A model generated the notes under the pieces. That model was not told the DNA's origin and did not search any database. It worked only from the letters and a program-made list of their open reading frames with translations. Positions 5,585 through 29,499 of a DNA stretch of 64,000 bases are shown here, piece after piece; positions within the stretch are counted from its first letter, which is position 1; each line of letters opens with the position of its first letter. The position numbers and the translations under genes are program-made. This DNA comes from Anaerolineae bacterium (GTDB lineage: Bacteria > Chloroflexota > Anaerolineae > Promineifilales > Promineifilaceae): NCBI GenBank assembly GCA_030425205.1, contig JAUIAP010000016.1, forward strand, positions 55,956-119,955. Direction: 5' to 3'.

Positions 5585-6239
5585 ATTACTCTACTTCCGC
5601 CACAAACTGTTTCGCTATCGGCAAGTTGAACAAGACATTGCCCAACGACAGACATCGCTTTTGGACATTGGTTGCGGGGATGGCGAAAATATGCTGCGCT
5701 TTCAACAGGCGTCGCTTGAAAAAGTGGGGATTGAAGTGTCGTTTAGTCGGTTACAGACTGCCCAACGGCAGGGACTGGTCGTGCAGCAAGCGAGCGGAAC
5801 GGCGTTGCCATTTGCCGATGACAGCTTCGATATGCTCTACATCGCGCATGTGTTGCACCATGTTGCTGAATTCGACACGGTGCTGCGCGAAATTGAGCGC
5901 GTGGTTGTTGAGAATGGCGTGGTCTTCGTGGTGGAAACAGTGACCGATCACCCGCTGCTGCGTCTGGCGCGTTGGTTGCATCCCGTCTGGCAAGGGGATG
6001 AGGTCGAGGCAAATTGGCGTTACAGTCAGCTTTATGAGATGCTGACCGCACATAACTTTCGCGTCGAGCGCACAGAACGCTACAATGTACTCTTCTTTCT
6101 GTGGGAGATGTTACCGCTGGCATTTTGGCCGTTTGAAATTTTCACACCGCTGTTTGTTTATCTCGACCTATTCTTCGCTCGTTTCGCTCAGCGGTATTCA
6201 GCTCACTGCTATTTTGTTTTACGACGCACAAACACATGA
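5574..6239 (+). CDS. Class I SAM-dependent methyltransferase
   Basis: Motif I is 'LLDIGCGDGENML', and 'FDMLYIAHVLHHV' is typical of Methyltransf_11. I prefer the ATG at 5574 (MHPKLLYF..) over the longest ORF start at 5514, which lies deep inside the flippase gene. The stop overlaps the next start as ATGA at 6236-6239. Confidence 0.75.
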   Translation: MHPKLLYFRHKLFRYRQVEQDIAQRQTSLLDIGCGDGENMLRFQQASLEKVGIEVSFSRLQTAQRQGLVVQQASGTALPFADDSFDMLYIAHVLHHVAEFDTVLREIERVVVENGVVFVVETVTDHPLLRLARWLHPVWQGDEVEANWRYSQLYEMLTAHNFRVERTERYNVLFFLWEMLPLAFWPFEIFTPLFVYLDLFFARFAQRYSAHCYFVLRRTNT

Positions 6240-7915
6240 CCAAAATTGTACTCATTGCGCTGGATGGCGCGACATTGGATTTACTAAAACCGTGGATGGA
6301 CGCGGGTGAACTACCATTGCTGGCGCAAATCTTCGCAGAAGGTGCAGGCGGCACGCTCAACAGCACCATCCCATGGGCAACGCCAACCGCATTTGCATCG
6401 CTGGCAACCGGCACAAATCCGGGCAAACACGGCGTCTACGACTTTGGGACGCTGATTGGCGATGACTATACGGCGTTTGTGCCAACCAGTGGCGGAGATG
6501 TGCACGGTCGAACGTTGTGGGAACGGCTGTCCGACGCGGGGATCAGCTCGGCCGTCATCAACATGCCCATGACCTATCCCGCCCCAGCCATCGAAGGCAG
6601 TGTCATCGCGGGAATTCCCTACCCCAGCGGCAGCCCACAACTCTGTCATCCCCCTCATTTGCTAGATCGCCTTCAGCAAGAAGGCTGGGATTTGGCGCGC
6701 AATGCGTCTGATGATTTGGGCGGTAGTTATGCGGCGTATCTTGACGGACTGCTCGACCTTGTGCGCGTGCGGGGTGAGGCCACGGCGTGGTTGATCGCGC
6801 AAGATAATCCTGACTTTGTCGCCGTCCATTTTTTGGAAACAGATCAGGCACAACATCGCTTCTGGCAATTCATGGCGGGCGAGCCACGCTATGAACATGG
6901 CGGCGAATATACCGATGCGATTTTGCGCGTTTTCCAGCAAACGGAGTCGGCGATGCAGCAGATTATCAACGCAGCGGGGGAAGACGCGCTGATCTGTGTC
7001 ATGTCGGATCATGGATTTGGCGCCACCCGTCATCAAGTTTGGCTCAACAATTGGCTGTTGCAGAATGACTTTCTCGCGCTCAAGTCAAACATGGGCGTGC
7101 GTGTCAAACAACTGCTCTATCGGGCGGGATTGTCGCCAGCGGCGATTCGGGAGATGGCTCCCGAGCGACTCAAATTGGCGATCTTGCAGTTTTTTGAACA
7201 ACAAAAGGGGCGTGCGCTGGCGAGTCAGACGGAAGGGGGGGATGCGCCCGTCAAGCGCAAAGGGGTGATGGACTGGCTGACAGAACGCTTGGCAATCGAT
7301 TTTTATGATGTCGATTGGGCGCGGACAGTCGCATTTTCGACGGGGACAACGGCGGTGGGATATGTCTATTTGAACGTCGCTGGGCGCGATCCGCAGGGGG
7401 TGGTGAGCAGTCAGCAATATGCTGTGAAGAGGCAGCAGATTGCCGAAAAGTTGCGCGATTGGGAAGCGGTTGGGGAAGTGCTTTTGCGGGAAGAGGTGTG
7501 GAAGGGTTCGCAGTTGGAGCTTGCGCCCGATTTGGTGATTCGATGGGCAGCGGACACGACGGATGCACGTTATTTCCAGACGCGCTTTAGTAGTCATCAT
7601 CTGATGAAAGCGGTGCCAAATGATTATGCAAGCCATCGGCCGAATGGTCTGTTCGCCTTTTATGGCAACGGGGTCAAAACGGGAATGCTCAACGCTGAAC
7701 TGGTCGATTTGACGGCGACGCTGTTGTGGCTGTTCAAACAGCCTGTGCCGAGCGTGCTGGATGGACGGGTGTTGACCGACTGTTTTGTGGCCGAGCGCGC
7801 AGTTTTGGTTGTGGAAGAGGCGGAAGATTCGGCCGAAAAAAGCACAGGCGGATTTTCGGCCGATGATGACGCCTCTCTCAAAGAGGCGTTGCGGCGACTA
7901 GGCTATTTAGAGTAG
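6236..7915 (+). CDS. Alkaline-phosphatase superfamily enzyme (type I phosphodiesterase / nucleotide pyrophosphatase-like)
   Basis: The N-terminus reads 'IVLIALDGATLDLL' and 'IPWATPTAFASLATGTNPGKHGVYDF', a metal-ligand Asp plus a Thr-nucleophile motif of the NPP type. 'VMSDHGF' provides a distal metal site. Confidence 0.75.
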   Translation: MTKIVLIALDGATLDLLKPWMDAGELPLLAQIFAEGAGGTLNSTIPWATPTAFASLATGTNPGKHGVYDFGTLIGDDYTAFVPTSGGDVHGRTLWERLSDAGISSAVINMPMTYPAPAIEGSVIAGIPYPSGSPQLCHPPHLLDRLQQEGWDLARNASDDLGGSYAAYLDGLLDLVRVRGEATAWLIAQDNPDFVAVHFLETDQAQHRFWQFMAGEPRYEHGGEYTDAILRVFQQTESAMQQIINAAGEDALICVMSDHGFGATRHQVWLNNWLLQNDFLALKSNMGVRVKQLLYRAGLSPAAIREMAPERLKLAILQFFEQQKGRALASQTEGGDAPVKRKGVMDWLTERLAIDFYDVDWARTVAFSTGTTAVGYVYLNVAGRDPQGVVSSQQYAVKRQQIAEKLRDWEAVGEVLLREEVWKGSQLELAPDLVIRWAADTTDARYFQTRFSSHHLMKAVPNDYASHRPNGLFAFYGNGVKTGMLNAELVDLTATLLWLFKQPVPSVLDGRVLTDCFVAERAVLVVEEAEDSAEKSTGGFSADDDASLKEALRRLGYLE

Positions 7916-16971: not shown

Positions 16972-18021
16972 ATGAAGAAACGAATAACGATCGGTGACAT
17001 CGCAATAGCCGCTGGTGTTTCAAAGCAGACGGTATCACGAGCCATCAACGACAAAGATGAGATCAGTTTAGAGACAAAAGAGCGCATTATGCAACTGGTG
17101 CGTGAATTGGGCTATCGGCCGAATCGTCTCGCCCAAGCGATGAATAGCCAGCGCACGCGCATGGTTGGCCTAGTCGTTTCTGATATCACAAACGCCTTCT
17201 TCCCAGAAATAGCGCGTGGCGCACAAGACGCAGCGATGGCGCAAGATTACACGATTCTGATCGTTAACACCGATGAAAGTGCTGACCGAGAAATACAGAT
17301 GTTGGAACTGCTGGCGGCCCAGTCGGTTGATGGGATTATCTCCTTCACACACCAAATGACCGATCGACAGTTGCTCGATTTTGCGGATGGATTTCGGCCG
17401 ATTGTGATGATCAATCGCAACATCGAACATCCAAACATTAGCCGCATCATGGTTGACAACGGTCGGGGCGCGGAAATGGCCGTCGAACATCTCATCGAAC
17501 AAGGTCATCAACACATCGCCATGTTAAGCAACATAACGTTCGCACCCGGCCACGTGCGGCGCGTGCAAGGCTATTTGCGTGCCTTGAGCCGCCATCAGCT
17601 CCCCGACTATCTGCACAGCACAAACGCCTCAAGTGACGGTGGTTACAATGGCACCATCGCCTTGTTAGGCAACCATCCCCATGTGACCGCTATCTTTTGT
17701 TACAACGACATGATGGCAATTGGCGCATTGCGTGCGTGCCAAGCGACTGGCCGGCGCGTGCCAGAGGATATTGCCATCGTCGGGTTTGACGACATCCAGC
17801 TCATCTCAATGATCACCCCATCGCTCTCTTCGATTCACGTCGATAAGTATGAAATTGGCAAATTGGCATTCATGCGCGTGCTTGAACTGCTCGAAGATGA
17901 CACAAGAAAAGCAGGTGCCATCACATTAGAACCCTCAATCAAGGTGCGCGAATCATCCCAACGCCAATCGCAGCCTAAGATGCAGGTGCGTCAAGTCAAT
18001 TCTAGATCAACCTCTTCATAA
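16972..18021 (+). CDS. LacI-family transcriptional regulator
   Basis: The N-terminal HTH is 'ITIGDIAIAAGVSKQTVSRAINDK', followed by a periplasmic-binding-protein-like sugar-binding fold ('IVGFDDI'). The start is taken at MKKRITIGDI. Confidence 0.9.
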   Translation: MKKRITIGDIAIAAGVSKQTVSRAINDKDEISLETKERIMQLVRELGYRPNRLAQAMNSQRTRMVGLVVSDITNAFFPEIARGAQDAAMAQDYTILIVNTDESADREIQMLELLAAQSVDGIISFTHQMTDRQLLDFADGFRPIVMINRNIEHPNISRIMVDNGRGAEMAVEHLIEQGHQHIAMLSNITFAPGHVRRVQGYLRALSRHQLPDYLHSTNASSDGGYNGTIALLGNHPHVTAIFCYNDMMAIGALRACQATGRRVPEDIAIVGFDDIQLISMITPSLSSIHVDKYEIGKLAFMRVLELLEDDTRKAGAITLEPSIKVRESSQRQSQPKMQVRQVNSRSTSS

Positions 18022-19241
18022 ACAGCATAGGCACGAAAGCCAAGCTGCAACGCCCGCGCACGGATGGCGGGGAATTTTGCGGTTGGTTGAGTCAACAGCA
18101 GCACGGGATTGTAACCAGCACGCACAAGTCGATGTAACGCGGCGGTCGTTGTGATGTCCCCATTGGGTGTGAGGATAAAGATGGTCGTTCCCCAGCCCAG
18201 TTTGAGTGTGGCGTGGGCGATAAATTGAAAGAGTGGTTGCGATGGGCAGCTTTCAACCCGCGCCAAAAGCTGCAAAATGTTCATTAAGTGGGGGTGACCC
18301 GTGCGGACAGGAATAGTGTTGCCGTGTTGCGTGGGGGAATCGGCCGAATTTGCCAATATCCGTCCTGTCCCCTCGTCAAAATTGACCGCATCGCCGCCCA
18401 ATGGATCAAACCCATTTGTCACCAGTCCAACCGCTTGCCGCCGCTCGCTACAGTGCGCGGCTAAAGAGGACGCTGCCGTAATCGCCCACTCAACGCGGTC
18501 GTGCAGACCGCGCCGTTCATAGTTATCATCGTTCAGATCGAGCAGGATAAAGGCCTGTAGCGAAATAGCGGGTTCGAGTGTTTTGACCATCAATCCCCCG
18601 CCCGCGCCAGCTTGCGATCGTGCGGACACCTTCCAGTTGATATGGCGCAAACTATCGCCAGCCCGATATTCACGCACGCCAATCGGCCGAGCTGGATCGG
18701 CATACAGCCGTTGATTGCTAACCAGCGTGCCAAACGGCAGACGCGAGGGTAGACGTAGCTGTTCGATTGGCACGATATGGGGATAAACGGTTAAGTATTG
18801 TGCGGGAAAGGTGGCCTCAATATTTTGAAAGCCAAAGATGTCGCCCGATTCGAGCTTGAGCGGCCCGATGCGATAGTAGCCGCGACGCATGGCACGCGCC
18901 GTATAGTGAAATTCGGCCGAATCCATCCCCCCCAATGCAACCGCCGTATTTAAATCTGTCCCGCTGCGCAGTTGCAACGGCGTCATTTCACGTAGCCGCA
19001 GCCACGTCAACGGCAAGCGGCTTTGATTTTCTACCGTCAACGTAATCGGGACTTCTTCTCCCAAAAAAGCGTTTGGGGCAAAAGCACGACTGATATGCAG
19101 TTTTGTAATTGAACGCGGAACTTGCCAGCGCGAATAAAGATAGAGTGCAGCGAGAACGTAGGCAACGTAGAAGATGAAGCTGACACGCAACAGGCCAGCA
19201 ATTAATAAGATAACGAGGATAAGCAGGGGAAGGCGTTTCAA
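17991..19241 (-). CDS. DUF58 domain protein with N-terminal membrane anchor
   Basis: The two-helix N-terminus is 'LLILVILLIAGLL..FIFYVAYVLAALYLY'. The DUF58 signature is 'VREYRAGDSLRHINWKVSARS'. The 3' end overlaps the convergent LacI gene by 31 nt. Confidence 0.75.
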   Translation of the reverse strand: MKRLPLLILVILLIAGLLRVSFIFYVAYVLAALYLYSRWQVPRSITKLHISRAFAPNAFLGEEVPITLTVENQSRLPLTWLRLREMTPLQLRSGTDLNTAVALGGMDSAEFHYTARAMRRGYYRIGPLKLESGDIFGFQNIEATFPAQYLTVYPHIVPIEQLRLPSRLPFGTLVSNQRLYADPARPIGVREYRAGDSLRHINWKVSARSQAGAGGGLMVKTLEPAISLQAFILLDLNDDNYERRGLHDRVEWAITAASSLAAHCSERRQAVGLVTNGFDPLGGDAVNFDEGTGRILANSADSPTQHGNTIPVRTGHPHLMNILQLLARVESCPSQPLFQFIAHATLKLGWGTTIFILTPNGDITTTAALHRLVRAGYNPVLLLTQPTAKFPAIRARALQLGFRAYAVYEEVDLELT

Positions 19242-20591: not shown

Positions 20592-20646
20592 GGAGCGCGA
20601 CCAGCTTGGTCACCAATCAAACAAGCGACCAAGCTGATCGCGCTCC
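20592..20646. promoter_or_regulatory. 20-bp inverted repeat in a divergent intergenic region
   Basis: GGAGCGCGACCAGCTTGGTC (20592-20611) pairs with GACCAAGCTGATCGCGCTCC (20627-20646). There is one mismatch and a 15-nt loop. Confidence 0.5.
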
Positions 20647-20694: not shown

Positions 20695-20733
20695 TTGACT
20701 TAGTGTATTTTCTACACTATAATAGTTAGTGTA
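20695..20733 (+). promoter_or_regulatory. Consensus sigma-70-type promoter with embedded operator-like repeats
   Basis: The -35 is TTGACT (20695-20700), the spacer is exactly 17 nt, and the -10 is TATAAT (20718-20723). TAGTGTA-TTTTC-TACACTA (20701-20719) is a perfect 7-bp inverted repeat that fills the spacer. A third TAGTGTA lies at 20727-20733. The ATG of the next gene is at 20747. Confidence 0.7.
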
Positions 20734-20746
20734 ATCGAGACACGAA

Positions 20747-21814
20747 ATGTTAAATCTATTCAACAACTACCTACTCAAGCTGCGACAGGCAGCACAACCA
20801 GAAGACGTGTTTGGCAGATTGTCCGCCCCGCAAGCAGAATGTTTGCGCGAGTTGTATAGGGACATGGTGATCGAACTGCATCCCGACCACAATCAACTGC
20901 GCGTCGCAGAGGCGACGGAAGCGTTTAAGCTGCTACAAGAGTGGCACGAGGCGGCCAAGATCAAGGTGGCGGCTGGGACGTATGGCACAGAGCCAACGCT
21001 TGAGGTTTCTTCACGCCGACATCACTATGTCAGCGCAAAACCAGCCATCGCAGGTGATTTGAGTGATGTTTTTACGGCGCGTGCGGATGGTAAGCGCAAG
21101 GTTGTTGTGAAGGTGGTGCGCCATCCAAAAAACAATGACCTACTGCTGGCGGAAGCGACTGCGCTACGTGAGCTGCATGAGCATCTCGACCGCACGCCGC
21201 TACGCGCACATTTCCCCGTCCTAATCGAGACATTTCGTCTCAAAGATGAAAGCGGTGCAGAACGCCAGACAAACGTGTTGCGCCATGAGGCGGAGGTGTT
21301 TTCACTGGCCGACGTGCGGAAAAAGTATCCAGACGGGATTGATCCGGCGGATGCGGCGTGGATGTTCAATCGCATGATTGCGGCATTGGGCAAGACACAT
21401 GAGGTCGGGTTGGTGCATGGGGCGATTGTGCCGGAGCATGTGTTGATTCGGCCGAAAGATCACAACGGCATCCTGATCGACTGGTGTTACAGCGTGCGTT
21501 CAGGTGAACAGATCAAGGCGATCAGCCCATCCCGCAAGGCGTTCTACCCGCCCGAAGTGTTGCAAAAGTTAGCGGCAACACCCGCTACAGACTTATTTAT
21601 GGCGGCGCAATGTATGATCGAGATTCTCGGCGGCGATGTGGCAACGGGGCAACTGCCATCCAGTGTGCCGAAGCCAATTGCAGCCCTGCTACGTGCGTGT
21701 TTGATTCCTGCGCCGAAGCGACGTTATCAAAACGCCTGGCATATTTTTGACGATTTCAAAGAGATTTTAGAACGGCTTTATGGTGAACCTACGTTCAGGT
21801 CGTTCACGATGTAG
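20747..21814 (+). CDS. J-domain protein fused to a protein-kinase-like (probable pseudokinase) domain
   Basis: The J-domain pattern is 'LRELYRDMVIELHPDHNQ...ATEAFKLLQEWHEAAK', with HPD at 20879-20887. The kinase-like lobe has 'KVVVKVVRHP' (VAIK-like Lys) and 'LLLAEATALREL' (alphaC Glu). 'GLVHGAIVPEHVLI' replaces HRDxKPxN, so HGA stands in for HRD. 'ILIDWCYS' replaces DFG. Confidence 0.7.
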   Translation: MLNLFNNYLLKLRQAAQPEDVFGRLSAPQAECLRELYRDMVIELHPDHNQLRVAEATEAFKLLQEWHEAAKIKVAAGTYGTEPTLEVSSRRHHYVSAKPAIAGDLSDVFTARADGKRKVVVKVVRHPKNNDLLLAEATALRELHEHLDRTPLRAHFPVLIETFRLKDESGAERQTNVLRHEAEVFSLADVRKKYPDGIDPADAAWMFNRMIAALGKTHEVGLVHGAIVPEHVLIRPKDHNGILIDWCYSVRSGEQIKAISPSRKAFYPPEVLQKLAATPATDLFMAAQCMIEILGGDVATGQLPSSVPKPIAALLRACLIPAPKRRYQNAWHIFDDFKEILERLYGEPTFRSFTM

Positions 21815-21857: not shown

Positions 21858-22850
21858 ATGGGTTATTCAAAATGGAGCAATGCAGCATTCGATTCACGCC
21901 AAACAGACCGTAAGCGCACTGGCACAACGGCGTTCAAGTATGACAAACACGTGCGCCAAACAGGGGTTGTCAAGATCCACCCCGACATGGATCCGTATGG
22001 CAAAACGCGGGAGAGTCGCGACAGCGACGACCATCCCGAATCAGTATCAATCGCCGTCCTGTTTGACGTGACGGGTTCGATGGGACAGGTTCCGCGCGTC
22101 ATGCAAACAAAACTCGGCGCACTGATGCGTGTGCTGATCCAAAAGGGGTATCTCGAACATCCACAAGTGCTGTTTGGCGGTATTGGCGATGCCTATTGCG
22201 ACCGTGTGCCATTGCAAATCGGGCAGTTTGAGTCAGGTCTTGAGATGGACGACGATCTCGGCAAAATTTTCATCGAAGGTGGCGGCGGCGGTCAGGTATA
22301 CGAGAGCTATGAGCTTGGCGTGTACTTTATGGCGAAGCACACGTCGATCGATTGCTGGGAAAAGCGCGGCAAGAAAGGATATCTGTTCACGATTGGGGAC
22401 GAAAAGCCGTATGACGTCGTGCGCAAGGAGCAGATTGAGAAGCACATTGGGGACAAGGTGCGTGGGAATGTCGATTCGGCCGAAATTTTCAACGAGGCCC
22501 AGAAAATGTACGAACATTTCCACATCATTCCAACCAACACCGCACACGGCAAAAACCCCGCCATCCATGAGCATTGGCGCAAATACATGGGTGAGCGCGT
22601 GCTGATCTTGGACGACGAAACGGCCGTCTGCGAAACGATTGCGCTCGCCATCGCCCTCTGTGAAGGCACCATCGACGATCTGTACAGTGGAGTCGATGAT
22701 CTGGTCAGCGCAGGCTATGACGCGACAGCGACAAAGGCGGCAACGTCTGCCCTCAAGCCATACGCTACACGGCGTGAAGGGTCTCTCGTCAAAGTAGTCG
22801 CAGGTAAATTGAAAGCGGCTGTCGCTGGCGGCGACGACGGACGACTTTAG
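21858..22850 (+). CDS. von Willebrand factor A (vWA) domain protein
   Basis: AAGGAG lies 7 nt upstream of the ATG at 21858. The MIDAS-like motif is 'AVLFDVTGSMG', with 'FGGIGDAYCDRVPLQIGQFES', 'EGGGGGQVYESYE' and 'GYLFTIGDEKP'. There is no signal peptide. Confidence 0.7.
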   Translation: MGYSKWSNAAFDSRQTDRKRTGTTAFKYDKHVRQTGVVKIHPDMDPYGKTRESRDSDDHPESVSIAVLFDVTGSMGQVPRVMQTKLGALMRVLIQKGYLEHPQVLFGGIGDAYCDRVPLQIGQFESGLEMDDDLGKIFIEGGGGGQVYESYELGVYFMAKHTSIDCWEKRGKKGYLFTIGDEKPYDVVRKEQIEKHIGDKVRGNVDSAEIFNEAQKMYEHFHIIPTNTAHGKNPAIHEHWRKYMGERVLILDDETAVCETIALAIALCEGTIDDLYSGVDDLVSAGYDATATKAATSALKPYATRREGSLVKVVAGKLKAAVAGGDDGRL

Positions 22851-22857
22851 TTAGCAA

Positions 22858-22899
22858 CAGTTTGCAGTGGACAGCCCCAAAACTGTTCACTGCAAGCTG
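22858..22899. repeat. Intercistronic hairpin, family B-like (CAGTTTGCAGTGGACAG / CTGTTCACTGCAAGCTG)
   Basis: The 17-bp stem has 2 mismatches and a loop CCCCAAAA. It lies between the vWA stop (22850) and the PurA-like start (22915). Confidence 0.65.
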
Positions 22900-22914: not shown

Positions 22915-24243
22915 ATGCGACAAGCTATTCTAACCACCGATCTCGGCTTTGGTGACGCGGGTAAAGGGGCGATCACCGACTATCTGACACGCCAGCACAA
23001 CGCACACACTGTCGTGCGCTTCAACGGCGGCGCGCAGGCGGGGCATCGCGTTGTGACCGATAGCGGTGAACACGTCTTTTCCCAATTTGGCAGCGGCACG
23101 TTGGCAGGGGCGCGCACCCATCTTTCACGCTTTATGCTTGTCGAACCGTTGGCCATGCTAGCCGAAGCAGAACATTTACAGGAGCTAGGTATTCGTGATC
23201 CGTTTGGCATGACAACAATTGATGAACGCGCATTGGTGACAACACCGTTTCAGCGCGCGGTCAATCGGTTGAAAGAGCTGGCGCGCGGCGACGGGCGGCA
23301 CGGCAGCTGCGGGATGGGGATTGGCGAGACGATGGTCGATTGGCTGGCACATGGGGGGGATGTCCTCTATTGTGGCGACTTTTCCACCCCTACCCAACTC
23401 AAAGCCAAATTGCGCCATCTTCAGGCTGTCAACCAAGTCAAAGCGGCCACGCTGCGCGATCAACTCCCCGACACGCCACAGGCGCAACAGGAATGGGATT
23501 GTCTGCACGATCCCAACGCCGTAGACCGCATCATTGTGGCCTATGCCCCCTTTATTGAACTTGCGCATGTCGTTCCCAGCGACTACCTGCACCTTTTGCT
23601 TGGGCGTGATGGCACGATCATTTTTGAACCAGCCCAAGGAGTGCTGCTCGATGAGTGGTACGGGTTTCATCCGTATACGACGTGGAGCACAACCACATTG
23701 GCAAATGCAGAAACATTGCTACACGAAGCGGATTACAAGGGTAAAGTTGTGCGCATCGGCATCACGCGCGCCTACACCCCGCGACATGGCGCGGGCCCCT
23801 TGCCAACGGAAGGTGCCCAATTGACAGCACTACTGCCCGATGCACGCAATGGCTTTGATGCATGGCAGGAAGGGTTTCGAGTTGGCTGGCTCGATCTGGT
23901 GTTGTTGCGCTATGCGCTAAGCGTCGTCGGCAAGCTCGACGGGCTGGCCGTGACCTGTTTGGATCGCGTTGTGGGGTTGCCCGAGTTGAAGATTTGTACG
24001 AGTTATCGGGGGAGTGGCGAGATCGAAAAGTGGCAAGGGACAGTGGGAATTTCGGCCGAAAACGCCATTCTCGCCCATCAATCCCAATTAACCGCCGACC
24101 TCCTGCAAAGCCAACCCAACTTGCAGACGATCGATTCGGCCGAAACGCTATTAACAACTATCGAACGAGAGACAGGACTCGACGTGCTGATTGAAGGGTG
24201 GGGTGCGGCAGCGGATGCAAAGCGGAAAAGAGAAGGCGCGTAA
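22915..24243 (+). CDS. Adenylosuccinate-synthetase-family ligase, divergent (PurA-like paralogue)
   Basis: It aligns by eye with PurA motifs: GDAGKGA (GDEGKGK), VVRFNGGAQAGHR (VVRYQGGHNAGHT), GSCGMGIGETM (TTGRGIGPAY), FEPAQGVLLD (FEGAQGTLLD) and TRAYTPRHGAGPLPTE (KAYSTRVGAGPFPTE). The Asp-binding loop TTGRRRRTGW is replaced by AWQEGFRVGW. KLD becomes CLD. Confidence 0.75.
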   Translation: MRQAILTTDLGFGDAGKGAITDYLTRQHNAHTVVRFNGGAQAGHRVVTDSGEHVFSQFGSGTLAGARTHLSRFMLVEPLAMLAEAEHLQELGIRDPFGMTTIDERALVTTPFQRAVNRLKELARGDGRHGSCGMGIGETMVDWLAHGGDVLYCGDFSTPTQLKAKLRHLQAVNQVKAATLRDQLPDTPQAQQEWDCLHDPNAVDRIIVAYAPFIELAHVVPSDYLHLLLGRDGTIIFEPAQGVLLDEWYGFHPYTTWSTTTLANAETLLHEADYKGKVVRIGITRAYTPRHGAGPLPTEGAQLTALLPDARNGFDAWQEGFRVGWLDLVLLRYALSVVGKLDGLAVTCLDRVVGLPELKICTSYRGSGEIEKWQGTVGISAENAILAHQSQLTADLLQSQPNLQTIDSAETLLTTIERETGLDVLIEGWGAAADAKRKREGA

Positions 24244-24244
24244 T

Positions 24245-24303
24245 ATTGCGTGTTGCGTATTGCGTATTGACCGCTGGATACGCACCACGCAATACGCAAT
24301 ACG
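24245..24303. repeat. Heptad-periodic hairpin (TATTGCG/GTGTTGC units) between convergent genes; probable bidirectional terminator
   Basis: attgcgtgttgcgtattgcgtat ... tacgcaccacgcaatacgcaatacg lies between the PurA-like stop (24243) and the recJ stop (24342). Confidence 0.7.
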
Positions 24304-24341: not shown

Positions 24342-26057
24342 TCACGCCGCTGGTCGAATATCCTTAATCATCAACTGCAACGTCCGTCGCCCGTTCCACT
24401 CATTGACGTTGACGCTATAAACAATATCGACGTATTGTGGCATTTGGGTAGCCCAAGAGGCTTGGCGGAAAGCGATCGTTTTGAACCCTGCGCGACCGTT
24501 GGTCACTTCCATTTGTAGATGGGTCTGATCTTTGCCGACGACGCGATGGCTGAGCACTTCGACACCTGAGGACATAAAGATCGGCCGATGATTCTCCATC
24601 CCACACGGCTCTAACTGTTGCAAATTTTCATACAACGCCCAGTCGATTTGATCGAGGTCGATTTCTGCGTCAATGTCGATGCTCGGCAGAAGTTCCTTGC
24701 CTTCAAGTGCGGTGCGGGCGATGTCGGTCATCTGCTCTTGGAAGAGTGGTAAATTTTTGTTTTCGACCGTAAAGCCAGCGGCAGCCGCATGTCCACCATG
24801 CCGCAAAAGCAGATGTGAAATTTCATCCAGCGCATCGGTGATGTGAAATTCATCAATCGAACGACAGGAGCCACGACTTTCCTCTTCCCCTTTCTCGATG
24901 ATGATGGCGGGGCGATAATGTTTGTCGGACAGGCGGCTGGCAACAAGACCCACGACCCCAGCCACAAAATTTTCACCCGCTGCGATCAAAATGGGGGCAT
25001 CTTCATCAATCATCCCTTCCGCCGCAATGCCCAAATCTTCAGTCAATTTTTGCCGCTTGCGGTTGAGCGATTCCAGTTCACGGGCGAGATTTAAGGCTGA
25101 GCGGCGGTCATGTGCGGCGAGCAGTTTGGCAGCGTCGTAGGCATGAGAAAGACGACCAGCCGCATTAATCCGCGGGCCGATGTTGAAGGCGATGGTTTCG
25201 GCCGAAATCGCCCCACCCTTGACGTTCGCCACTTCTCCCAACGCCGCAATCCCCGCACGCTTTGTGCCGTTCATCACGCGTAACCCATCGCGCACCAGCT
25301 TACGATTCTCGCCTAACAGCGGAGCCAAGTCGGCTACCGTCCCAATGGCGACGAGATCGAGCACGTTGTTGAGATCGAAGCGCACATAGTTTGGCATCGC
25401 CTGATAACAGGCCTGCGCCAATTTATAGGCAATCCCAACCCCTGCCAACATCTTTTCGGGATAGTCACAGGGTAGTTTGGGGTTGATGACGGCGAGTGCG
25501 GGGGGAATTTTTCGGCCGATGCTGTGATGATCGGTCACGATCATATCCAATCCGATGCTATTGGCGTGTTCAACCTCTTGCACTGAGCGAATACCGCAAT
25601 CAACCGAAATGACCAAATCTGCGCCGACCGTCTCCTTGATATGGGTGAGCGCATCGTTGTTCAAGCCATACCCCTCATCAACGCGATCGGGAATGTAGGG
25701 CTGTGCATTGCGGCGGGATATTCCCAAGCCACGCAACGCCTCTGTGAGCAACACGGTCGATGTCACACCATCCGCGTCAAAATCACCATAGACAACAATT
25801 CGTTCGTCCTGCTCAATCGCCTGTTGAATCCGCGCAACCGCCTTATCCATGTCGGGCAGCAGAAACGGATCTTCAGTTTCAAGATAATGCCCCTCAATAA
25901 ATCCTTGAATTTGAGCGGGGGTGGTCAATCCACGATTAAACAGCACCTGTACAAAGACAGGGTGCAGATTTGGCAACTGTGTTGCGAGTGTCGGTGCGAT
26001 TTTTGGTTGAACGTGCCAGCGTTTGGCGCGCAGGTCGAGCGGTCTTACAATTCCCAT
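24342..26057 (-). CDS. recJ: Single-stranded-DNA-specific exonuclease RecJ
   Basis: The DHH-family motifs 'VYGDFDADGVTS', 'ISVDCG' and 'IVTDHH' are present, together with DHHA1 'GGHAAAAGF'. Confidence 0.93.
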   Translation of the reverse strand: MGIVRPLDLRAKRWHVQPKIAPTLATQLPNLHPVFVQVLFNRGLTTPAQIQGFIEGHYLETEDPFLLPDMDKAVARIQQAIEQDERIVVYGDFDADGVTSTVLLTEALRGLGISRRNAQPYIPDRVDEGYGLNNDALTHIKETVGADLVISVDCGIRSVQEVEHANSIGLDMIVTDHHSIGRKIPPALAVINPKLPCDYPEKMLAGVGIAYKLAQACYQAMPNYVRFDLNNVLDLVAIGTVADLAPLLGENRKLVRDGLRVMNGTKRAGIAALGEVANVKGGAISAETIAFNIGPRINAAGRLSHAYDAAKLLAAHDRRSALNLARELESLNRKRQKLTEDLGIAAEGMIDEDAPILIAAGENFVAGVVGLVASRLSDKHYRPAIIIEKGEEESRGSCRSIDEFHITDALDEISHLLLRHGGHAAAAGFTVENKNLPLFQEQMTDIARTALEGKELLPSIDIDAEIDLDQIDWALYENLQQLEPCGMENHRPIFMSSGVEVLSHRVVGKDQTHLQMEVTNGRAGFKTIAFRQASWATQMPQYVDIVYSVNVNEWNGRRTLQLMIKDIRPAA

Positions 26058-27091: not shown

Positions 27092-27937
27092 TTATGGGGT
27101 GTCATCGCCAAACGCTAAAAAGTCGCGTTGCGCCCAGCCAACCGTGCCATCAACTGTCATGATCTCTTTGTAGATGACGCCGGTGTGGTTGGCGTTGCCC
27201 GATAGCAAGATGACGGTATCGCCGTCTTGCAGGAGAATGAGATTGTTGCCACCCGGTGTGCTTTTGACCCAGAGCGTGCTGCCCCCAGTGTTGACTCGTG
27301 CGGTTGGTTGATCAATCGGCGTTGGGGTCAATGTAGGGGTTGGGCTTTGGGTGGGAGTTGGTGTGTTTGTCGGCAGTGGCGTGGGCGTGCGGGTAGGTGT
27401 TGGGGTTTCTGTTGGAATTGCGGTGGCGGGGAGTGGTGTCGATGCAGGGGCATCGGCCGATATCTCAGGCTCATCATCAGCCGCAACGGCGGTATCGGCC
27501 TGTACGGGTTCAACAGAATCGACGCTCTCTTCAAATTGAGTCGCATCATCGGCCGATCCGCTGCCATCATTACCCGGCAGTGCAGCCCCCATCGCGCCCG
27601 TTACAGGCGTGCGGGAGACGACAAGACTTCCCTCAACCGTCACAACTTCTAAGGCAGCAACTTCGTCGCCGCCGTCTGCTACGGATTGCGGCTCTTCCGT
27701 TGTCGGGAGGGTCGCACCCAACGGCACGCCAGCGATATAAAAGCCAACGGTGAGCATTAAGAACGCGAACGCAATGGTTGTAAGCGCACGTACCCGTGCA
27801 TCTTTGCGATACGGTTCAATTTGAGAAGTTAGGTGTTGGCGATTTGGCGACTGCACATAAAGCGAATAGGCCACTGTGACCAATGCGCCGACAATCGAAA
27901 ATCCCATGCCTAAAATTGTCCATTGTGGAAAACCCAT
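27092..27937 (-). CDS. Membrane-anchored protein with Pro/Thr-rich linker and C-terminal SH3b domain
   Basis: The start is taken at MGFPQWTILGMGFSIVGALV (27937), because the longest ORF would overlap lpdA. There are two TM helices and an acidic region. The linker is 'PTETPTPTRTPTPLPTNTPTPTQSPTPTLTPTP'. The SH3b-like end is 'ARVNTGGSTLWVKSTPGG..DGTVGWAQRDFL'. Confidence 0.65.
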   Translation of the reverse strand: MGFPQWTILGMGFSIVGALVTVAYSLYVQSPNRQHLTSQIEPYRKDARVRALTTIAFAFLMLTVGFYIAGVPLGATLPTTEEPQSVADGGDEVAALEVVTVEGSLVVSRTPVTGAMGAALPGNDGSGSADDATQFEESVDSVEPVQADTAVAADDEPEISADAPASTPLPATAIPTETPTPTRTPTPLPTNTPTPTQSPTPTLTPTPIDQPTARVNTGGSTLWVKSTPGGNNLILLQDGDTVILLSGNANHTGVIYKEIMTVDGTVGWAQRDFLAFGDDTP

Positions 27938-28104
27938 GTGAGCATTATAGCGATGGGCGTTAAATCTGTGTAATTGGGGTGAGTGGGAGGTGAGGGAAAT
28001 TCGGCCGAAAAGGTACAATCGCATGTTGAAATTTAGTGAACAGTTACCAGCAGACAGTGAATGGTTCATAAACGACGCGCTGTCAGTTGAAATGGAGTAG
28101 AAAG

Positions 28105-29499
28105 ATGGCTCAAGAATTTGATGTAGTCGTGATTGGTGCAGGCCCCGGCGGTTATGTGGCGGCGATTCGTGCAGCACAGTTGGGTTTGAAAACGGCAGTT
28201 GTGGAAAAAAAGTATTGGGGCGGTGTTTGCCTCAACATCGGCTGCATTCCAAGTAAGGCGTTGCTTTACAATGCAGAGTTGGCGAACATCTTCTCACAAC
28301 GGGCGAAAGAGTTTGGATTTTCCTATGATAACTTTTCGGCCGATTACAGTGTTGCCTTCAAACGCAGCCGCCAAACGTCCAACCGTCTCGTAAAAGGGAT
28401 CGGTCTCTTGATGCGTAAAAACAAGATTACCACCTTTGACGGTACGGCAACGTTAACGGGTAAAAACAGCGTTCAAGTCAGCCTCAACGACGGTGGTGAA
28501 GAGACGCTCAATGCCAAAAATATCATCATCTCAACGGGCGCACGCCCACGTGAGTTGCCCGGCATGGAGACAGATGGCGAGCGCGTCATCAGCTATATCC
28601 CGGCCATTATGAGCGAAAGCAATCCAGGAAAAGCGGTCATCGTGGGCGGTGGCGTGATCGGTGTTGAGTTCAGCTACATGTGGGCAAACTACGGCACAGA
28701 TGTCACCATCGTTGAGATGATGGATCGCATTCTGCCGCTGGAAGAACCGGAAGTCAGCAAGCTGCTCGCCAAAGAGTACAAGAAGATGGGCGTCAATCTC
28801 GAACTCGGCACAGTCGTCGAGAACATCGACAAGAGCGGTGAGAAAATGACGGTCACGCTCAAGAATGGCAAGGTGATCGAAGATGTCGATAAGGTGCTCG
28901 TCGCCGTCAGCTTCACGCCAAATGTCGAGAACATCGGATTAGATGCGGCAGGTGTTGAACTCAACGAACGCGGCATGGTCGGTGTCAACGACATGATGCA
29001 GACAAACGTAGACAACATCTACGCCATAGGTGACGTGACGGGTAAGTTGATGTTGGCGCATGTCGCCAGCGCGATGGGTCTCTTGGCGGCCGAGCATATC
29101 GCTGGTCATGAGGTGCAACCACTCGACCTCGACATGATGCCACGCGCCATCTACTGCCAGCCGCAAGTCGCCTCCTTCGGCTACACCGAAGCACAGGCAA
29201 AAGAGAAAGGGTATGAGATCAACGTCGGTCAATTCCCCTTTATCGCCAACGGCAAGGCACTCGGCACGGGTGACAAAGATGGTTTCGCCAAAATCATTTC
29301 GGATGCCAAGTATGGCGAAATTTTGGGCGCACACATCATCGGTCATAATGTGACAGAGCTGTTGCCTGAGCTGACGCTGGCACGCATGAATGAGTTAACG
29401 GCCGAAGAGATAGCCCGCAACGTCCACGCCCATCCAACGATGAGCGAGGCCATTATGGAAGCCGCACATGCCGTTGAAGGCGAAGCGATCCACATTTAG
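28105..29499 (+). CDS. lpdA: Dihydrolipoyl dehydrogenase
   Basis: GGAG lies upstream of the ATG at 28105. '[23 protein letters not shown]' is present, along with the redox-active '[16 protein letters not shown]' and the C-terminal 'HAHPTMSEA'. Confidence 0.95.

What the first reader, a model, noticed from the sequence alone, without database searches (positions are those of the whole stretch)
22915..24243. PurA homologue with a replaced aspartate-binding loop and altered GTP-specificity motif
The protein keeps the P-loop Asp (GDAGKGA), the catalytic His region (GGAQAGHR) and the (S/T)R.G.GP.PTE motif. The loop that binds L-aspartate in PurA (TTGRRRRTGW in E. coli) reads AWQEGFRVGW. The IMP-binding TTGRGIGPAY reads GSCGMGIGETM. 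The guanine-specificity (N/T)KLD reads TCLD. This argues for a ligase with the same phosphoryl-transfer chemistry but a different nucleotide and/or amine substrate. The phage PurZ enzyme retargets the same fold in a comparable way. Its position after a vWA gene rather than in a purine context supports a non-housekeeping role.
Basis: partly seen in the sequence, partly recalled or inferred. Interest (0 to 1): 0.7.

Follow-up and report, generated by a model that had tools for sequence, protein, structure and literature searches.

The report
PurA-like ligase in vWA–pseudokinase cassette
This gene encodes a look-alike of the purine enzyme adenylosuccinate synthetase that has lost its aspartate pocket, always travels with a vWA protein (usually also a J-domain pseudokinase) in bacteria, plasmids and giant phages, and has no known function, though its neighbours hint at NAD metabolism.

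Summary
ORF 22915-24243 (+, 442 aa) has a full PurA fold. It keeps the phosphotransfer residues D13, K16, H41 and Q224 and the guanine-binding Asp (E. coli numbering). It has lost the aspartate ligands and half of the IMP-phosphate ligands.

These changes are not drift. In 131 non-identical relatives the replacements are themselves conserved: N38Q, T129C, V273H, T301Q, T300 to an aromatic residue, R305 to a hydrophobic one.

The gene is a paralogue, not the housekeeping purA. A related Anaerolineae contig carries both this gene and a canonical purA.

It is the third gene of a cassette made of a J-domain pseudokinase, a MIDAS-type vWA protein and the PurA-like enzyme. The cassette recurs in Chloroflexota, Actinomycetota, other phyla, megaplasmids, Bxz1-type mycobacteriophages and about 270 viral contigs.

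No canonical purA locus examined has the vWA neighbour. The vWA partner has a nearly invariant N-terminus (MGxxxW).

The only other recurrent neighbours are NrtR-type Nudix regulators and, in large viral contigs (up to 512 kb), the NAD-salvage gene Nampt.

No functional study was found. My best reading is a GTP-dependent ligase that uses a non-aspartate amine, in a module linked to NAD/ADP-ribose. Substrate and product are unknown.

The parts
20695..20723 (+). Sigma-70-type promoter-like site (TTGACT, 17-nt spacer, TATAAT) 24 nt upstream of the first cassette gene
   Evidence: 11 of 12 consensus matches. This is a consensus match only. A 70%-complementary inverted repeat at 20700-20746 overlaps it and could be an operator.
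20747..21814 (+). Gene 1: N-terminal J domain (HPD at residues 45-47) fused to a protein-kinase-like domain that lacks the catalytic Asp (HGA instead of HRD, His instead of Asn). A predicted pseudokinase or atypical kinase.
   Evidence: Pfam Pkinase and DnaJ hits, both below the gathering cut-off. phrog_3043 'kinase' at 185 bits. Residue conservation: K122, E136 and H224 conserved, G225/A226 in 36-37 of 43 non-Chloroflexi sequences, D245 partly conserved. HPD in 84 of 109 orthologues, a Zn ribbon instead in 7. Syntenic orthologues.
21858..22850 (+). Gene 2: 330-aa vWA-fold protein with an intact MIDAS motif (D70-x-T72-x-S74, D181) and a nearly invariant flexible N-terminus MG-x-x-x-W. The mechanical ORF starts at 21780, but the RBS AAGGAG and the conserved MG start place the true start at 21858.
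   Evidence: No Pfam hit. phrog_2971, unknown function, 229 bits. AF2 model pLDDT 72.5 and pTM 0.78, with residues 1-8 disordered. Every Foldseek PDB hit inspected is a vWA-fold protein, mostly vWA / integrin I domains. G2 99%, D70 100%, T72 99%, S74 99%, D181 100% in 129 non-identical orthologues. MGxxx[WFY] in 127 of 133 loci. Start-site sequence; the gene is called as 330 aa in L001/L002.
22858..22899 (.). 17-nt-arm inverted repeat (88% complementary, 8-nt loop) in the 64-nt spacer between the vWA and PurA-like genes. No T-run follows it. Possibly an mRNA stem-loop.
   Evidence: Function not tested.
22915..24243 (+). Gene 3: the finding itself. A PurA-fold, probably GTP-dependent ligase of a distinct clade, with signatures HGSCG-G-GE, EGAQGVLLDEW-GFHP-TTWST, TRHG-GP, WQ-GFR and T(C/H)LD.
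   Evidence: AF2 model pLDDT 84.6 and pTM 0.88. Best structural matches are E. coli and B. anthracis PurA at TM 0.77-0.80. phrog_1211 at 237 bits.
24244..24303 (.). 24-nt-arm inverted repeat built of TATTGCG-like heptads, directly after the PurA-like stop codon and before the convergent recJ-like gene (24342-26057, minus strand). Likely a bidirectional terminator that marks the end of the cassette.
   Evidence: arms 24244-24267 and 24278-24301, 88% complementary. Gene layout. The terminator role is inferred.

Best explanation
The ORF encodes a catalytically competent PurA-fold ligase that is not adenylosuccinate synthetase. It is the enzyme of a conserved, horizontally mobile module. The core is a MIDAS-type vWA protein plus the PurA-like enzyme. 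A J-domain (sometimes Zn-ribbon) pseudokinase is usually added.

**Shown**
- The fold is PurA.
- The phosphotransfer residues are retained, the aspartate ligands are lost, and the clade-specific replacements are conserved.
- It coexists with a canonical purA.
- The module is syntenic across phyla, plasmids and large phages.
- It recurs next to NrtR-type regulators and NAD-salvage genes.

**Inferred mechanism**
1. The enzyme binds GTP. D333, G416 and the P-loop are kept.
2. It phosphorylates a lactam-type or carboxyl-type oxygen of a nucleotide-like substrate, using D13, K16, H41 and Q224. The likeliest substrate is a 6-oxopurine nucleotide whose 5' end is bound differently from IMP.
3. The phosphate is displaced by an amine that is not L-aspartate. 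The cationic Arg/Thr aspartate pocket has become an aromatic/His/Gln pocket (W317, Q318, F321, H291, W257).

**Candidate amines, in my order of preference**
1. The invariant, flexible N-terminal glycine of the vWA partner, or another group presented by that partner.
2. Ammonia or a small amine.

**Inferred roles of the partners**
- The pseudokinase probably regulates or scaffolds the pair.
- Its J domain would couple the pair to DnaK/Hsp70.

**Inferred physiological setting**
- In bacteria, nucleotide metabolism tied to NAD+/ADP-ribose.
- In large phages, probably support of NAD+ salvage against NAD+-depleting host defences.
For: **Fold and residues**
- PF00709 at 215 bits, but below the purA equivalog cut-offs.
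- Alignments to solved PurA structures.
- AF2 model pLDDT 84.6; TM 0.77-0.80 to E. coli PurA complexes.
- Family-wide conservation in N=131. Kept in at least 96%: D13, K16, H41, Q224, T239, R272, R306, D333. Replaced: N38Q 98%, T129C 95%, V273H 99%, T301Q 94%, T300 to W/F/Y, R305 to F/L/W/M, K331 to H or C.

**Paralogy**
- L009 carries the cassette plus a canonical purA with GTTKRGIGPAY, GATTGRPRR and TKLD.
- The clade also occurs on Rhodococcus and Variovorax megaplasmids and in phages of M. smegmatis.

**Module**
- All three proteins are pairwise homologous between the window, Rhodococcus pDK3, a Variovorax plasmid and phage QBert.
- vWA is next to the variant in about 60 of 63 non-edge genomic loci and next to 0 of 18 canonical loci.
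- 75 of 80 viral loci have vWA and 65 of 80 have the kinase.
- Rhizobium and Vibrio phages have the vWA + PurA-like pair alone.

**vWA partner**
- vWA fold confirmed.
- MIDAS residues and G2 conserved at 99-100%.

**NAD link**
- An NrtR-family regulator (NUDIX + NrtR_WHD) is adjacent in 39 genomic and 9 viral loci.
- Nampt is adjacent in 10 viral loci.
- L097 reads nrtR-nampt-vWA-purAL-kinase-NMNAT-like. L113 reads nrtR-vWA-Nudix-nampt-purAL-kinase.
Against: - No biochemical or genetic data exist for any member in the searched literature.
- The substrate, the amine and even catalytic turnover are inferred from residue conservation alone.
- D13, K16, H41 and Q224 also contact GTP/Mg2+, so keeping them is compatible with a pure GTPase.
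- The window itself, and the Chloroflexota loci examined, have no NrtR or Nampt neighbour. The NAD link is therefore transferred from other lineages.
- NrtR-family regulators also control non-NAD pathways, such as pentose use (PMC2330246).
- High sequence conservation across Chloroflexota (57-65% identity) looks more like a housekeeping role than a conflict system.
- Bootstrap support for a clean variant/canonical split in a simple NJ tree is only 58/100.
Confidence: 0.55

Rival explanations
1. Protein-directed ligase. The PurA-like enzyme activates a 6-oxopurine nucleotide with GTP and joins its C6 to the alpha-amine of the invariant N-terminal glycine of the vWA partner (after Met removal). 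The product would be a covalently nucleotide-tagged vWA protein, about +330 Da if the nucleotide is IMP. This is a specific version of the best explanation.
For: - G2 is conserved in 99% of 129 non-identical vWA partners, and MGxxx[WFY] is present in 127 of 133 loci.
- Residues 1-8 are disordered in the model, which suits a tether.
- The vWA gene directly precedes the ligase gene even where the kinase is absent.
- The arginines that bind the aspartate carboxylates are gone. The amine-side pocket is instead aromatic/Gln, as expected for a peptide rather than a dicarboxylate.
Against: - There is no precedent for a PurA-family enzyme acting on a protein.
- No complex model could be computed here.
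- The conserved N-terminus could serve other roles: docking, regulation, a MIDAS ligand or a degron.
- No co-variation between the N-terminal tail and pocket residues was demonstrated.
Confidence: 0.2
2. Small-molecule amidoligase. The enzyme uses ammonia or a small neutral amine instead of aspartate. Examples would be direct IMP to AMP amination, or GTP-driven amidation of a nicotinate-type NAD precursor. It would feed adenine-nucleotide or NAD+ regeneration. The vWA protein and the pseudokinase would be regulators.
For: - Charged Asp ligands are lost, and the small hydrophobic pocket would suit NH3 or a small amine.
- Relatives of this superfamily (BioD, CTP synthase, CobQ-type amidases; my own knowledge) all phosphorylate an oxygen and then add nitrogen.
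- The gene is interleaved with nampt, a Nudix gene and an NMNAT-like gene under NrtR in large viral contigs.
- A PRTase gene and an active-Nudix gene lie near it in a Rhizobium phage.
Against: - It does not explain the obligatory vWA partner or its invariant N-terminal glycine.
- No glutaminase or ammonia-channel partner is seen.
- No such reaction is known for a PurA homologue.
- Three of the four IMP 5'-phosphate ligands are changed or lost (N38Q, T129C, R143 not conserved). IMP itself may therefore not be the substrate.
Confidence: 0.2
3. GTPase switch or chaperone. The PurA fold has been recruited as a nucleotide-dependent remodelling partner of the vWA protein, by analogy with MoxR AAA+/vWA pairs. 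The J-domain pseudokinase would bring in Hsp70. No ligation chemistry would occur.
For: - vWA/MIDAS proteins usually work with an NTPase as peptide-binding adaptors (PMC9503650; MoxR-vWA from my own knowledge).
- The retained residues all touch GTP/Mg2+.
- The acceptor-side residues are the ones that changed.
- A J domain implies protein remodelling.
Against: - Q224, T239, G127 and the whole IMP-side architecture remain conserved.
- New invariant polar or catalytic-looking residues (C132, H291, H129, Q318) have appeared where the acceptor binds. That argues for a defined small ligand site rather than decay.
- No PurA-family GTPase switch is known.
Confidence: 0.1
4. Genuine but divergent adenylosuccinate synthetase (IMP + Asp + GTP). 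This is how NCBI, JGI and several phage and plasmid records name it.
For: - PF00709 hit.
- Database names such as 'adenylosuccinate synthetase'.
- A full PurA fold.
Against: - T300, T301, R303, R304, R305 and R131 are all replaced, family-wide.
- Scores are less than half of every equivalog cut-off.
- A canonical purA coexists on contig L009.
- No purine-pathway gene is among the recurrent neighbours. The only recurrent partners are vWA, the kinase, NrtR and Nampt.
Confidence: 0.03
5. PurZ-like enzyme that makes a modified DNA base precursor (for example 2-aminoadenine) for phage genomes.
For: - The clade is abundant in large phages.
- RefSeq and PHROGs carry the label '2-aminooxy adenylosuccinate synthetase'.
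Against: - The PurZ model scores 27 bits against a 300-bit cut-off, and only over the P-loop.
- PurZ and PurZ0 keep aspartate as substrate (descriptions of 6tnh and 7odx), whereas this clade has lost the Asp pocket.
- Structural similarity to PurZ is lower (TM about 0.6) than to bacterial PurA.
- The clade is chromosomal and vertically conserved in Chloroflexota and Actinomycetota.
- No datZ/mazZ/dpoZ-type family is among the recurrent neighbours of the viral loci, though I did not search for them specifically.
Confidence: 0.02

Closest known systems
Adenylosuccinate synthetase PurA (EC 6.3.4.4; e.g. E. coli, PDB 1cg0/1cg1; PF00709, TIGR00184)
   Same: - Same full-length fold (TM 0.77-0.80).
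- P-loop GDxGKG with D13 and K16.
- H41, Q224, T239, R272 and the xGAGPxPTE region.
- Guanine-binding D333 and G416.

By inference it shares GTP-dependent O-phosphorylation chemistry.
   Different: - The aspartate ligands are lost: T300/T301 become W/Q, R303-R305 become non-basic residues, and R131 becomes M/V/L.
- The IMP-phosphate ligands are changed: N38Q, T129C, and R143 is not conserved.
- V273H, S240W, and K331 becomes C or H.
- Scores are under half of the equivalog cut-offs.
- It is a paralogue alongside a canonical purA.
- Its neighbours are vWA and a kinase rather than purine-pathway genes.
'PurA-like adenylosuccinate synthetase' of cluster C1 (Bixzunavirus, Bxz1-type) mycobacteriophages, with its kinase and hypothetical-protein neighbours (phrog_1211 / phrog_3043 / phrog_2971)
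   Same: - Same clade: 38-45% identity and the same signature motifs.
- Same three-gene order, e.g. QBert gp253-gp254-gp255. Bxz1 gp248 is the vWA protein.
   Different: - Phage-borne, in a lytic myovirus of M. smegmatis. K331 is His rather than Cys.
- The function is unstudied there too. The only papers found are genome announcements.
PurZ / PurZ0 (phage 2-aminoadenylosuccinate synthetase; PDB 7odx, 6fko, 7vf6)
   Same: A PurA-superfamily enzyme retargeted by active-site changes and carried by phages.
   Different: - PurZ derives from the short archaeal-type enzyme. It keeps aspartate and changes the nucleotide to dGMP.
- Here the long bacterial-type fold is kept and the aspartate site is what changed.
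- 27 bits on the PurZ model; TM about 0.6.
NTPase + vWA (MIDAS) pairs such as MoxR-vWA, and vWA + protein kinase sets such as the TerY-P triad (from my own knowledge; vWA described as a Mg2+-dependent peptide-binding chaperone in PMC9503650)
   Same: A MIDAS-containing vWA protein is encoded next to a P-loop nucleotide-using enzyme and a kinase-like protein, in a mobile, conflict-associated context.
   Different: - The NTP-using partner is a PurA-fold ligase, not an AAA+ ATPase.
- The kinase lacks its catalytic Asp and carries a J domain.
- There is no PP2C phosphatase.
- No published description of this combination was found.
Phage NAD+ reconstitution pathway NARP2 (Nampt + Nmnat) and NrtR-regulated NAD salvage operons
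   Same: In at least 10 large viral contigs the cassette lies inside or beside nrtR-nampt(-Nudix / NMNAT-like) clusters. In 39 bacterial loci an NrtR-family regulator is adjacent.
   Different: - None of the three proteins is homologous to any NARP1, NARP2 or NARP3 component.
- The NARP papers do not mention them.
- The window locus has no NrtR or Nampt gene.

Membership tests
Adenylosuccinate synthetase (PurA, EC 6.3.4.4) | PF00709 fold over the full length | tested here: met
   Pfam 215 bits, profile positions 6-411 of 416. AF2 model TM 0.77-0.80 to E. coli PurA.
Adenylosuccinate synthetase (PurA, EC 6.3.4.4) | Score at or above the curated equivalog cut-off (NF002223 402 bits; TIGR00184 395.55 bits) | tested here: not met
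   169.2 and 135.1 bits.
Adenylosuccinate synthetase (PurA, EC 6.3.4.4) | Phosphotransfer residues D13, K16, H41, Q224 | tested here: met
   All present in the window protein and in at least 98% of 131 relatives.
Adenylosuccinate synthetase (PurA, EC 6.3.4.4) | L-aspartate ligands T300, T301, R303, R305 (and R131) | tested here: not met
   They read W, Q, E, F and M in the window protein, and the replacements are conserved family-wide.
Adenylosuccinate synthetase (PurA, EC 6.3.4.4) | IMP 5'-phosphate ligands N38, T129, T239 and R143 of the partner subunit | tested here: not met
   N38Q and T129C; R143 is not conserved (E/Q/D); only T239 is kept.
Adenylosuccinate synthetase (PurA, EC 6.3.4.4) | Guanine-specificity elements (N/T)KxD and S414-x-G416 | tested here: inconclusive
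   D333 is kept in 130 of 131 and G416 in 123 of 131. S414 is kept in 101 of 131, but is Gly in the window protein. K331 is replaced by C here and by H in most relatives.
Adenylosuccinate synthetase (PurA, EC 6.3.4.4) | Acts as the genome's purine-pathway enzyme (makes adenylosuccinate; complements purA) | not testable with these tools
   The only indirect evidence is a canonical purA on the same contig as an orthologue (L009) and the absence of a second purA in the window.
PurZ (succino-amino-deoxyadenylate synthase) | NCBIfam NF038379 at or above 300 bits; short archaeal-type architecture | tested here: not met
   27 bits, over residues 8-56 only. The protein is 442 aa with the long-form fold. 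TM to 7odx/6fko is 0.58-0.60, against 0.77-0.80 to PurA.
vWA-linked PurA-like clade (phrog_1211 with phrog_2971 and phrog_3043; no curated name) | Signature residues Q38, C129, H273, aromatic at 300, Q301, hydrophobic at 305, H/C331 (E. coli numbering) | tested here: met
   All are present in the window protein. Each is conserved in 94-99% of 131 members, or as a residue class.
vWA-linked PurA-like clade (phrog_1211 with phrog_2971 and phrog_3043; no curated name) | A MIDAS vWA gene with an MG-x3-aromatic N-terminus adjacent, usually directly upstream | tested here: met
   Window 21858-22850. vWA fold. Adjacency statistics. N-terminus.
vWA-linked PurA-like clade (phrog_1211 with phrog_2971 and phrog_3043; no curated name) | A J-domain or Zn-ribbon kinase-like gene lacking the HRD Asp in the same operon | tested here: met
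   Window 20747-21814: HPD present and HGA in place of HRD. Present in 65 of 80 viral loci and most genomic loci.
NrtR-controlled NAD salvage / phage NARP2 gene clusters | An NrtR, Nampt or Nmnat gene in the same locus | tested here: not met
   None within the ORFs listed for 16.9-31.2 kb of the window. The association is seen only in other lineages.

The most novel reading that the evidence does not exclude
The PurA-like enzyme carries out a previously unknown protein modification. It uses GTP to activate a 6-oxopurine nucleotide and couples it through C6 to the invariant N-terminal glycine of its vWA partner ('N-terminal purinylation'). The J-domain pseudokinase and Hsp70 would control the cycle. 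The tagged vWA protein would act in NAD+/ADP-ribose-linked phage-host conflict, which would explain the module's presence in large and jumbo phages next to Nampt and NrtR.
Probability: 0.12. Interest if true: 0.95.

Novelty: new variant of a known kind. Interest (0 to 1): 0.78.

Why it matters
**Mis-annotation.** PF00709 has been treated as essentially a one-reaction family, with PurZ as the notable exception. This finding points to a very large clade that is annotated everywhere as 'adenylosuccinate synthetase' but cannot bind aspartate.
- About 3000 clusters at 50% identity reach E ≤ 1e-30. That total may include some canonical PurA.
- About 270 viral contigs carry a relative.

Annotation of purine metabolism in Chloroflexota, Actinomycetota and phages is therefore inflated.

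**Undescribed module.** The clade sits in a three-gene module for which I found no published description. The module is shared by bacteria, megaplasmids, the well-studied Bxz1-type mycobacteriophages and uncultivated jumbo phages. Its only recurrent companions are ADP-ribose-sensing NrtR regulators and NAD-salvage genes.

**What it could be.**
- A new nucleotide-ligase chemistry.
- Possibly a new protein modification.
- A new player in the NAD+-centred arms race between phages and bacteria.

**Testability.** M. smegmatis phages and Rhodococcus/Streptomyces hosts make it directly testable.

Tried and rejected
1. **Second purA in the window.** tblastn with E. coli PurA found only this ORF. The rest of the genome is not available, so coexistence was shown in a relative (L009) instead.
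2. **PADLOC defence models.** No hit for the PurA-like or vWA proteins. The kinase gave only generic kinase-domain hits to MkoA, PD-T4-6 and mad6. It is not a catalogued defence system.
3. **Rfam scan of the window.** Only one tRNA was found. There is no riboswitch upstream of the cassette.
4. **Organism names via cluster look-up.** No names were returned.
5. **Fusion proteins as functional clues.** Longer homologues (P0238, P0095, P0246 and others) show no extra Pfam domain. One carries a Peptidase_S51 fusion (P0099), which looks like an isolated gene-call merger.
6. **Literature.** Eight full-text searches and five papers read found nothing on function. NARP3 turned out to be PnuC + NadR, not this cassette. 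The unknown NrtR-regulated 'nrtX-nrtY' genes of Rodionov 2008 could not be identified because no supplement is held.
7. **Kinase homologue in the Rhizobium and Vibrio phages.** None was found by HMM or BLAST. Those phages have a Met/Gly-rich protein upstream instead.
8. **Other conserved neighbours.** Clustering all ORFs around 66 genomic and 80 viral loci gave only NrtR and Nampt as cross-lineage companions. The remaining recurrent clusters were antisense shadow ORFs or lineage-specific phage genes.
9. **NJ phylogeny.** The variant/canonical split is recovered, but with only 58/100 bootstrap support. Signature residues plus gene context define the clade better than raw distance.
10. **Complex prediction of vWA + PurA-like.** Not attempted.
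Full report
**1. The observation**

- It matches Pfam PF00709 (adenylosuccinate synthetase) over essentially the whole profile, at 215 bits.
- It reaches less than half of the curated cut-off of every NCBIfam purA equivalog: 169 vs 402 bits for NF002223 and 135 vs 395.55 for TIGR00184.
- It scores only 27 bits, over the P-loop, on the PurZ model, whose cut-off is 300.

HMMER alignments to solved PurA structures and MAFFT alignments with E. coli PurA verify each motif.
- GDAGKG keeps D13 and K16.
- GGAQAGH keeps H41; N38 becomes Q.
- GTTGRGIGPAY has become GSCGMGIGETM.
- GATTGRRRRTGW has become DAWQ-EGFRVGW. A one-residue deletion is present, so W317 and Q318 replace T300 and T301, while E, G and F replace R303-R305.
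- TKLD has become TCLD, with D333 kept.

An AlphaFold2 model (pLDDT 84.6, pTM 0.88) superposes on E. coli, B. anthracis and mouse PurA with TM 0.77-0.80. It superposes much less well on archaeal PurA and on PurZ/PurZ0, at TM 0.55-0.60.

**2. The changes are a conserved alternative active site**

The protein has thousands of relatives.
- The word-indexed search returned 6913 proteins at E ≤ 1e-10. The best 120 are all 57-82% identical and come from Chloroflexota: Caldilineaceae, Roseiflexaceae, Oscillochloris and Amarolinea.
- The exhaustive search of 50%-identity representatives gave 3001 clusters at E ≤ 1e-30, and the best 150 all score above 322 bits.

I examined 131 non-identical members collected from genomes and viral contigs.

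| Residues (E. coli numbering) | Status across the 131 members |
|---|---|
| D13, K16, H41, Q224, T239, R272, R306, D333 | kept in at least 96% |
| N38 | Q in 98% |
| T129 | C in 95% |
| V273 | H in 99% |
| T301 | Q in 94% |
| T300 | W, F or Y |
| R305 | F, L, W or M |
| S240 | W in 116 of 131 |
| K331 | H (96) or C (25) |

Purifying selection therefore acts on a different pocket. The machinery that holds GTP/Mg2+ and activates the acceptor oxygen is untouched. The cationic aspartate site has become aromatic/His/Gln. The 5'-phosphate site of IMP has lost N38, T129 and the partner-subunit R143.

The roles assigned to the E. coli residues come from established structural work on PurA (my own knowledge). 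The structure descriptions list hadacidin, GDP and 6-phosphoryl-IMP complexes.

**3. It is a paralogue**
- No second purA lies in the 64-kb window.
- Contig L009, from an Anaerolineae MAG, carries a 58%-identical orthologue with its cassette. About 2.8 kb downstream it also carries a textbook purA with GDEGKG, GTTKRGIGPAY, GATTGRPRR and TKLD.
- A Ktedonobacterales contig (L081) shows that Chloroflexota possess canonical PurA.
- The clade also occurs on Rhodococcus, Tsukamurella and Variovorax megaplasmids, and in lytic phages of M. smegmatis. In those settings it cannot be the host's purine enzyme.

**4. The cassette**

In the window the gene is third in a tight plus-strand set behind a strong promoter-like site (TTGACT-17-TATAAT at 20695-20723).
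- 20747-21814 encodes a J domain with an intact HPD motif, fused to a protein-kinase-like domain. The beta3 Lys (K122), the alphaC Glu (E136) and often the DFG Asp are kept. HRD reads HGA, and the catalytic-loop Asn is His.
- 21858-22850 has no Pfam hit. Its AlphaFold2 model (pLDDT 72.5) matches vWA-fold proteins, mostly vWA / integrin I domains, in the PDB. It therefore encodes a vWA protein.
- 22915-24243 is the PurA-like gene.

The same three genes are homologous pairwise and in the same order in four further settings:
- distant Chloroflexota;
- Rhodococcus plasmid pDK3;
- a Variovorax megaplasmid;
- mycobacteriophage QBert gp253-255.

Across the plasmid and phage copies the kinase is 30-36% identical, the vWA protein 37-49% and the ligase 41-44%. 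All three proteins have their own PHROG families.

Wider scans gave the following.
- A scan of one genome per species returned the clade from many Actinomycetota genera, Planctomycetota, Saccharibacteria and Sungbacteria, Myxococcota, Verrucomicrobiota, Betaproteobacteria, Melainabacteria and others.
- Scoring signature against context gives a clean separation. About 60 of 63 non-edge loci with the variant signature have the vWA gene next door. None of 18 loci with the canonical signature does.
- In IMG/VR, 270 stretches encode a relative. Of the best 80 loci, 75 have the vWA gene and 65 have the kinase. Many of these sit on contigs of 100-512 kb. Gene order varies.
- Rhizobium (RHph_TM21B) and Vibrio (Va1) phages carry only the vWA + PurA-like pair. 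That pair is therefore the core.
- Some kinases carry a Zn ribbon instead of the J domain.

**5. The vWA partner**

Among 129 non-identical vWA partners the MIDAS residues are invariant or nearly so: D70, T72 and S74 of DxTxS, plus D181. So is the second residue, Gly, at 99%.

127 of 133 loci begin MG-x-x-x-(W/F/Y). The first eight residues are disordered in the model.

An N-terminus this conserved is unusual. It sits on a protein that is always encoded beside a ligase whose amine pocket has been rebuilt. It is therefore the most suggestive single clue to the missing substrate. It remains only a clue.

**6. Functional context**

Clustering all ORFs around 66 genomic and 80 viral loci produced only two further cross-lineage neighbours.
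- An NrtR-family regulator (NUDIX + NrtR winged-helix; Pfam) is adjacent in 39 genomic loci and 9 viral loci. The genomic loci are Actinomycetota, some Alphaproteobacteria and an Acidobacterium.
- Nicotinamide phosphoribosyltransferase (NAMPT_N + NAPRTase) is adjacent in 10 viral loci.

In several large viral contigs the cassette is interleaved with NAD-salvage genes.
- L097 reads nrtR-nampt-vWA-purAL-kinase-(CTP_transf_like, NMNAT-type).
- L113 reads nrtR-vWA-(309-aa Nudix protein)-nampt-purAL-kinase.
- The Rhizobium phage has a ComF-like PRTase, an active-box Nudix protein and a HAD-like hydrolase ('putative dehalogenase hydrolase-like protein' in the record) a few kb upstream.

NrtR regulators sense ADP-ribose and control NAD synthesis and salvage, although some control other pathways (PMC2330246; PMC9503650). 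Nampt + Nmnat is the phage NARP2 pathway that counters NAD+-depleting defences (bioRxiv 10.1101/2024.02.11.579819).

None of the NARP1/2/3 papers, nor the survey of viral NAD-ADPr systems, mentions this cassette. The window locus itself has no NrtR or Nampt gene. Its neighbours are an FMN-dependent dehydrogenase, a tRNA, a recJ-like gene and a nitroreductase-like gene.

**7. Most likely mechanism**

Shown:
- a PurA fold;
- intact GTP/Mg2+ and oxygen-activating residues;
- no aspartate site;
- obligatory genomic coupling to a MIDAS vWA protein, and usually to a J-domain pseudokinase.

Inferred:
1. The enzyme still uses GTP to phosphorylate a lactam-type or carboxyl-type oxygen on a nucleotide-like acceptor.
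2. It resolves the intermediate with a non-aspartate amine.

I rank the acceptors as follows:
1. the partner's N-terminal glycine, or another group it presents;
2. ammonia or a small amine;
3. none, meaning a pure GTPase switch analogous to MoxR-vWA pairs.

The pseudokinase would regulate or scaffold, and its J domain would recruit DnaK. The architecture recalls eukaryotic GAK, which combines a kinase and a J domain (my own knowledge).

The biological role is probably tied to NAD+/ADP-ribose-linked nucleotide economy. In large phages it is probably tied to sustaining NAD+ salvage during infection. The strong vertical conservation in Chloroflexota (57-65% identity for all three proteins) suggests a housekeeping-like role there.

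**8. Comparison and novelty**
- The protein works like PurA only in the donor half-reaction.
- It fails the defining PurA tests: the equivalog score, the Asp ligands and the IMP-phosphate ligands.
- It fails the PurZ test.
- It is a member of the unnamed clade that phage annotators call 'PurA-like adenylosuccinate synthetase'. For that clade I found only genome announcements.

I class it as a new variant of a known kind: a known fold with a new, conserved active site, in a module for which I found no published description.

**9. Limits**
- No substrate, product or phenotype is known.
- The NAD link is by neighbourhood in other lineages.
- A complex model could not be computed.
- A simple NJ tree supports the clade split only moderately, at 58/100.

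Noticed in passing
window 20592-20646: A 20-nt-arm, 95%-complementary inverted repeat (GGAGCGCGACCAGCTTGGTC / GACCAAGCTGATCGCGCTCC, 15-nt loop). It lies in the divergent intergenic region between the FMN-dependent dehydrogenase gene (minus strand) and the cassette. It could be an operator or a leader structure.
   Followed up: no
window 20700-20746: A second, weaker palindrome (TTAGTGTATTTTCTACACTA / TAGTGTAATCGAGACACGAA) overlaps the -35/-10 promoter-like site of the cassette. It is a candidate repressor site. The Chloroflexota loci examined lack the NrtR gene seen elsewhere.
   Followed up: no
window 24244-24303: An inverted repeat built from TATTGCG-like heptad repeats, between the convergent PurA-like and recJ-like genes. 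It is unusually repetitive for a terminator.
   Followed up: partly
window 17991-19241 (minus strand): A 416-aa ORF whose sequence (…VREYRAGDSLRHINWKVSAR…) looks, to my eye, like the DUF58 family, which usually accompanies MoxR/vWA 'Bat'-type operons. That would make it a second vWA-related context a few kb from the cassette. I did not scan it against any library.
   Followed up: no
window 27092-28177 (minus strand): An ORF with a long Pro/Thr-rich low-complexity linker (…PTETPTPTRTPTPLPTNTPTPTQSPTPTLTPTP…), followed by a C-terminal domain that looks globular.
   Followed up: no
L009 125-3345 and 6134-7399: In this Anaerolineae MAG the cassette and the canonical purA lie only about 2.8 kb apart on the same strand. 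This proximity was not seen in the other Chloroflexota loci.
   Followed up: partly
L090 5636-6427 and L089 about 5700-7000: In the Rhizobium and Vibrio phages the vWA + PurA-like pair is preceded by a 240-263-aa protein instead of the kinase. The two proteins look related by eye (shared FxxVDGVVWDxMxG start) and both have a Met/Gly-rich C-terminus (…MMMMKMMGGM…). The Rhizobium copy has no Pfam hit.
   Followed up: partly
L093 432-1661 (and 3 other viral loci): A 410-aa protein with a nucleoside 2-deoxyribosyltransferase-like domain (PF15891) recurs near the cassette in four viral contigs. This is another nucleotide-processing neighbour.
   Followed up: no
L036 5898-6917; L007 5726-6928: In Leptolinea and Variovorax the kinase-like protein carries an N-terminal Cys4 Zn ribbon in place of the J domain. 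In Leptolinea it hits the PriA CRR-like Pfam model. The N-terminal module is therefore interchangeable.
   Followed up: partly
RefSeq / PHROGs annotation (H2, H9, H14; phrog_1211): RefSeq phage records and PHROGs label this clade '2-aminooxy adenylosuccinate synthetase'. That is a PurZ-type name which the sequence evidence does not support. It looks like propagated mis-annotation.
   Followed up: partly
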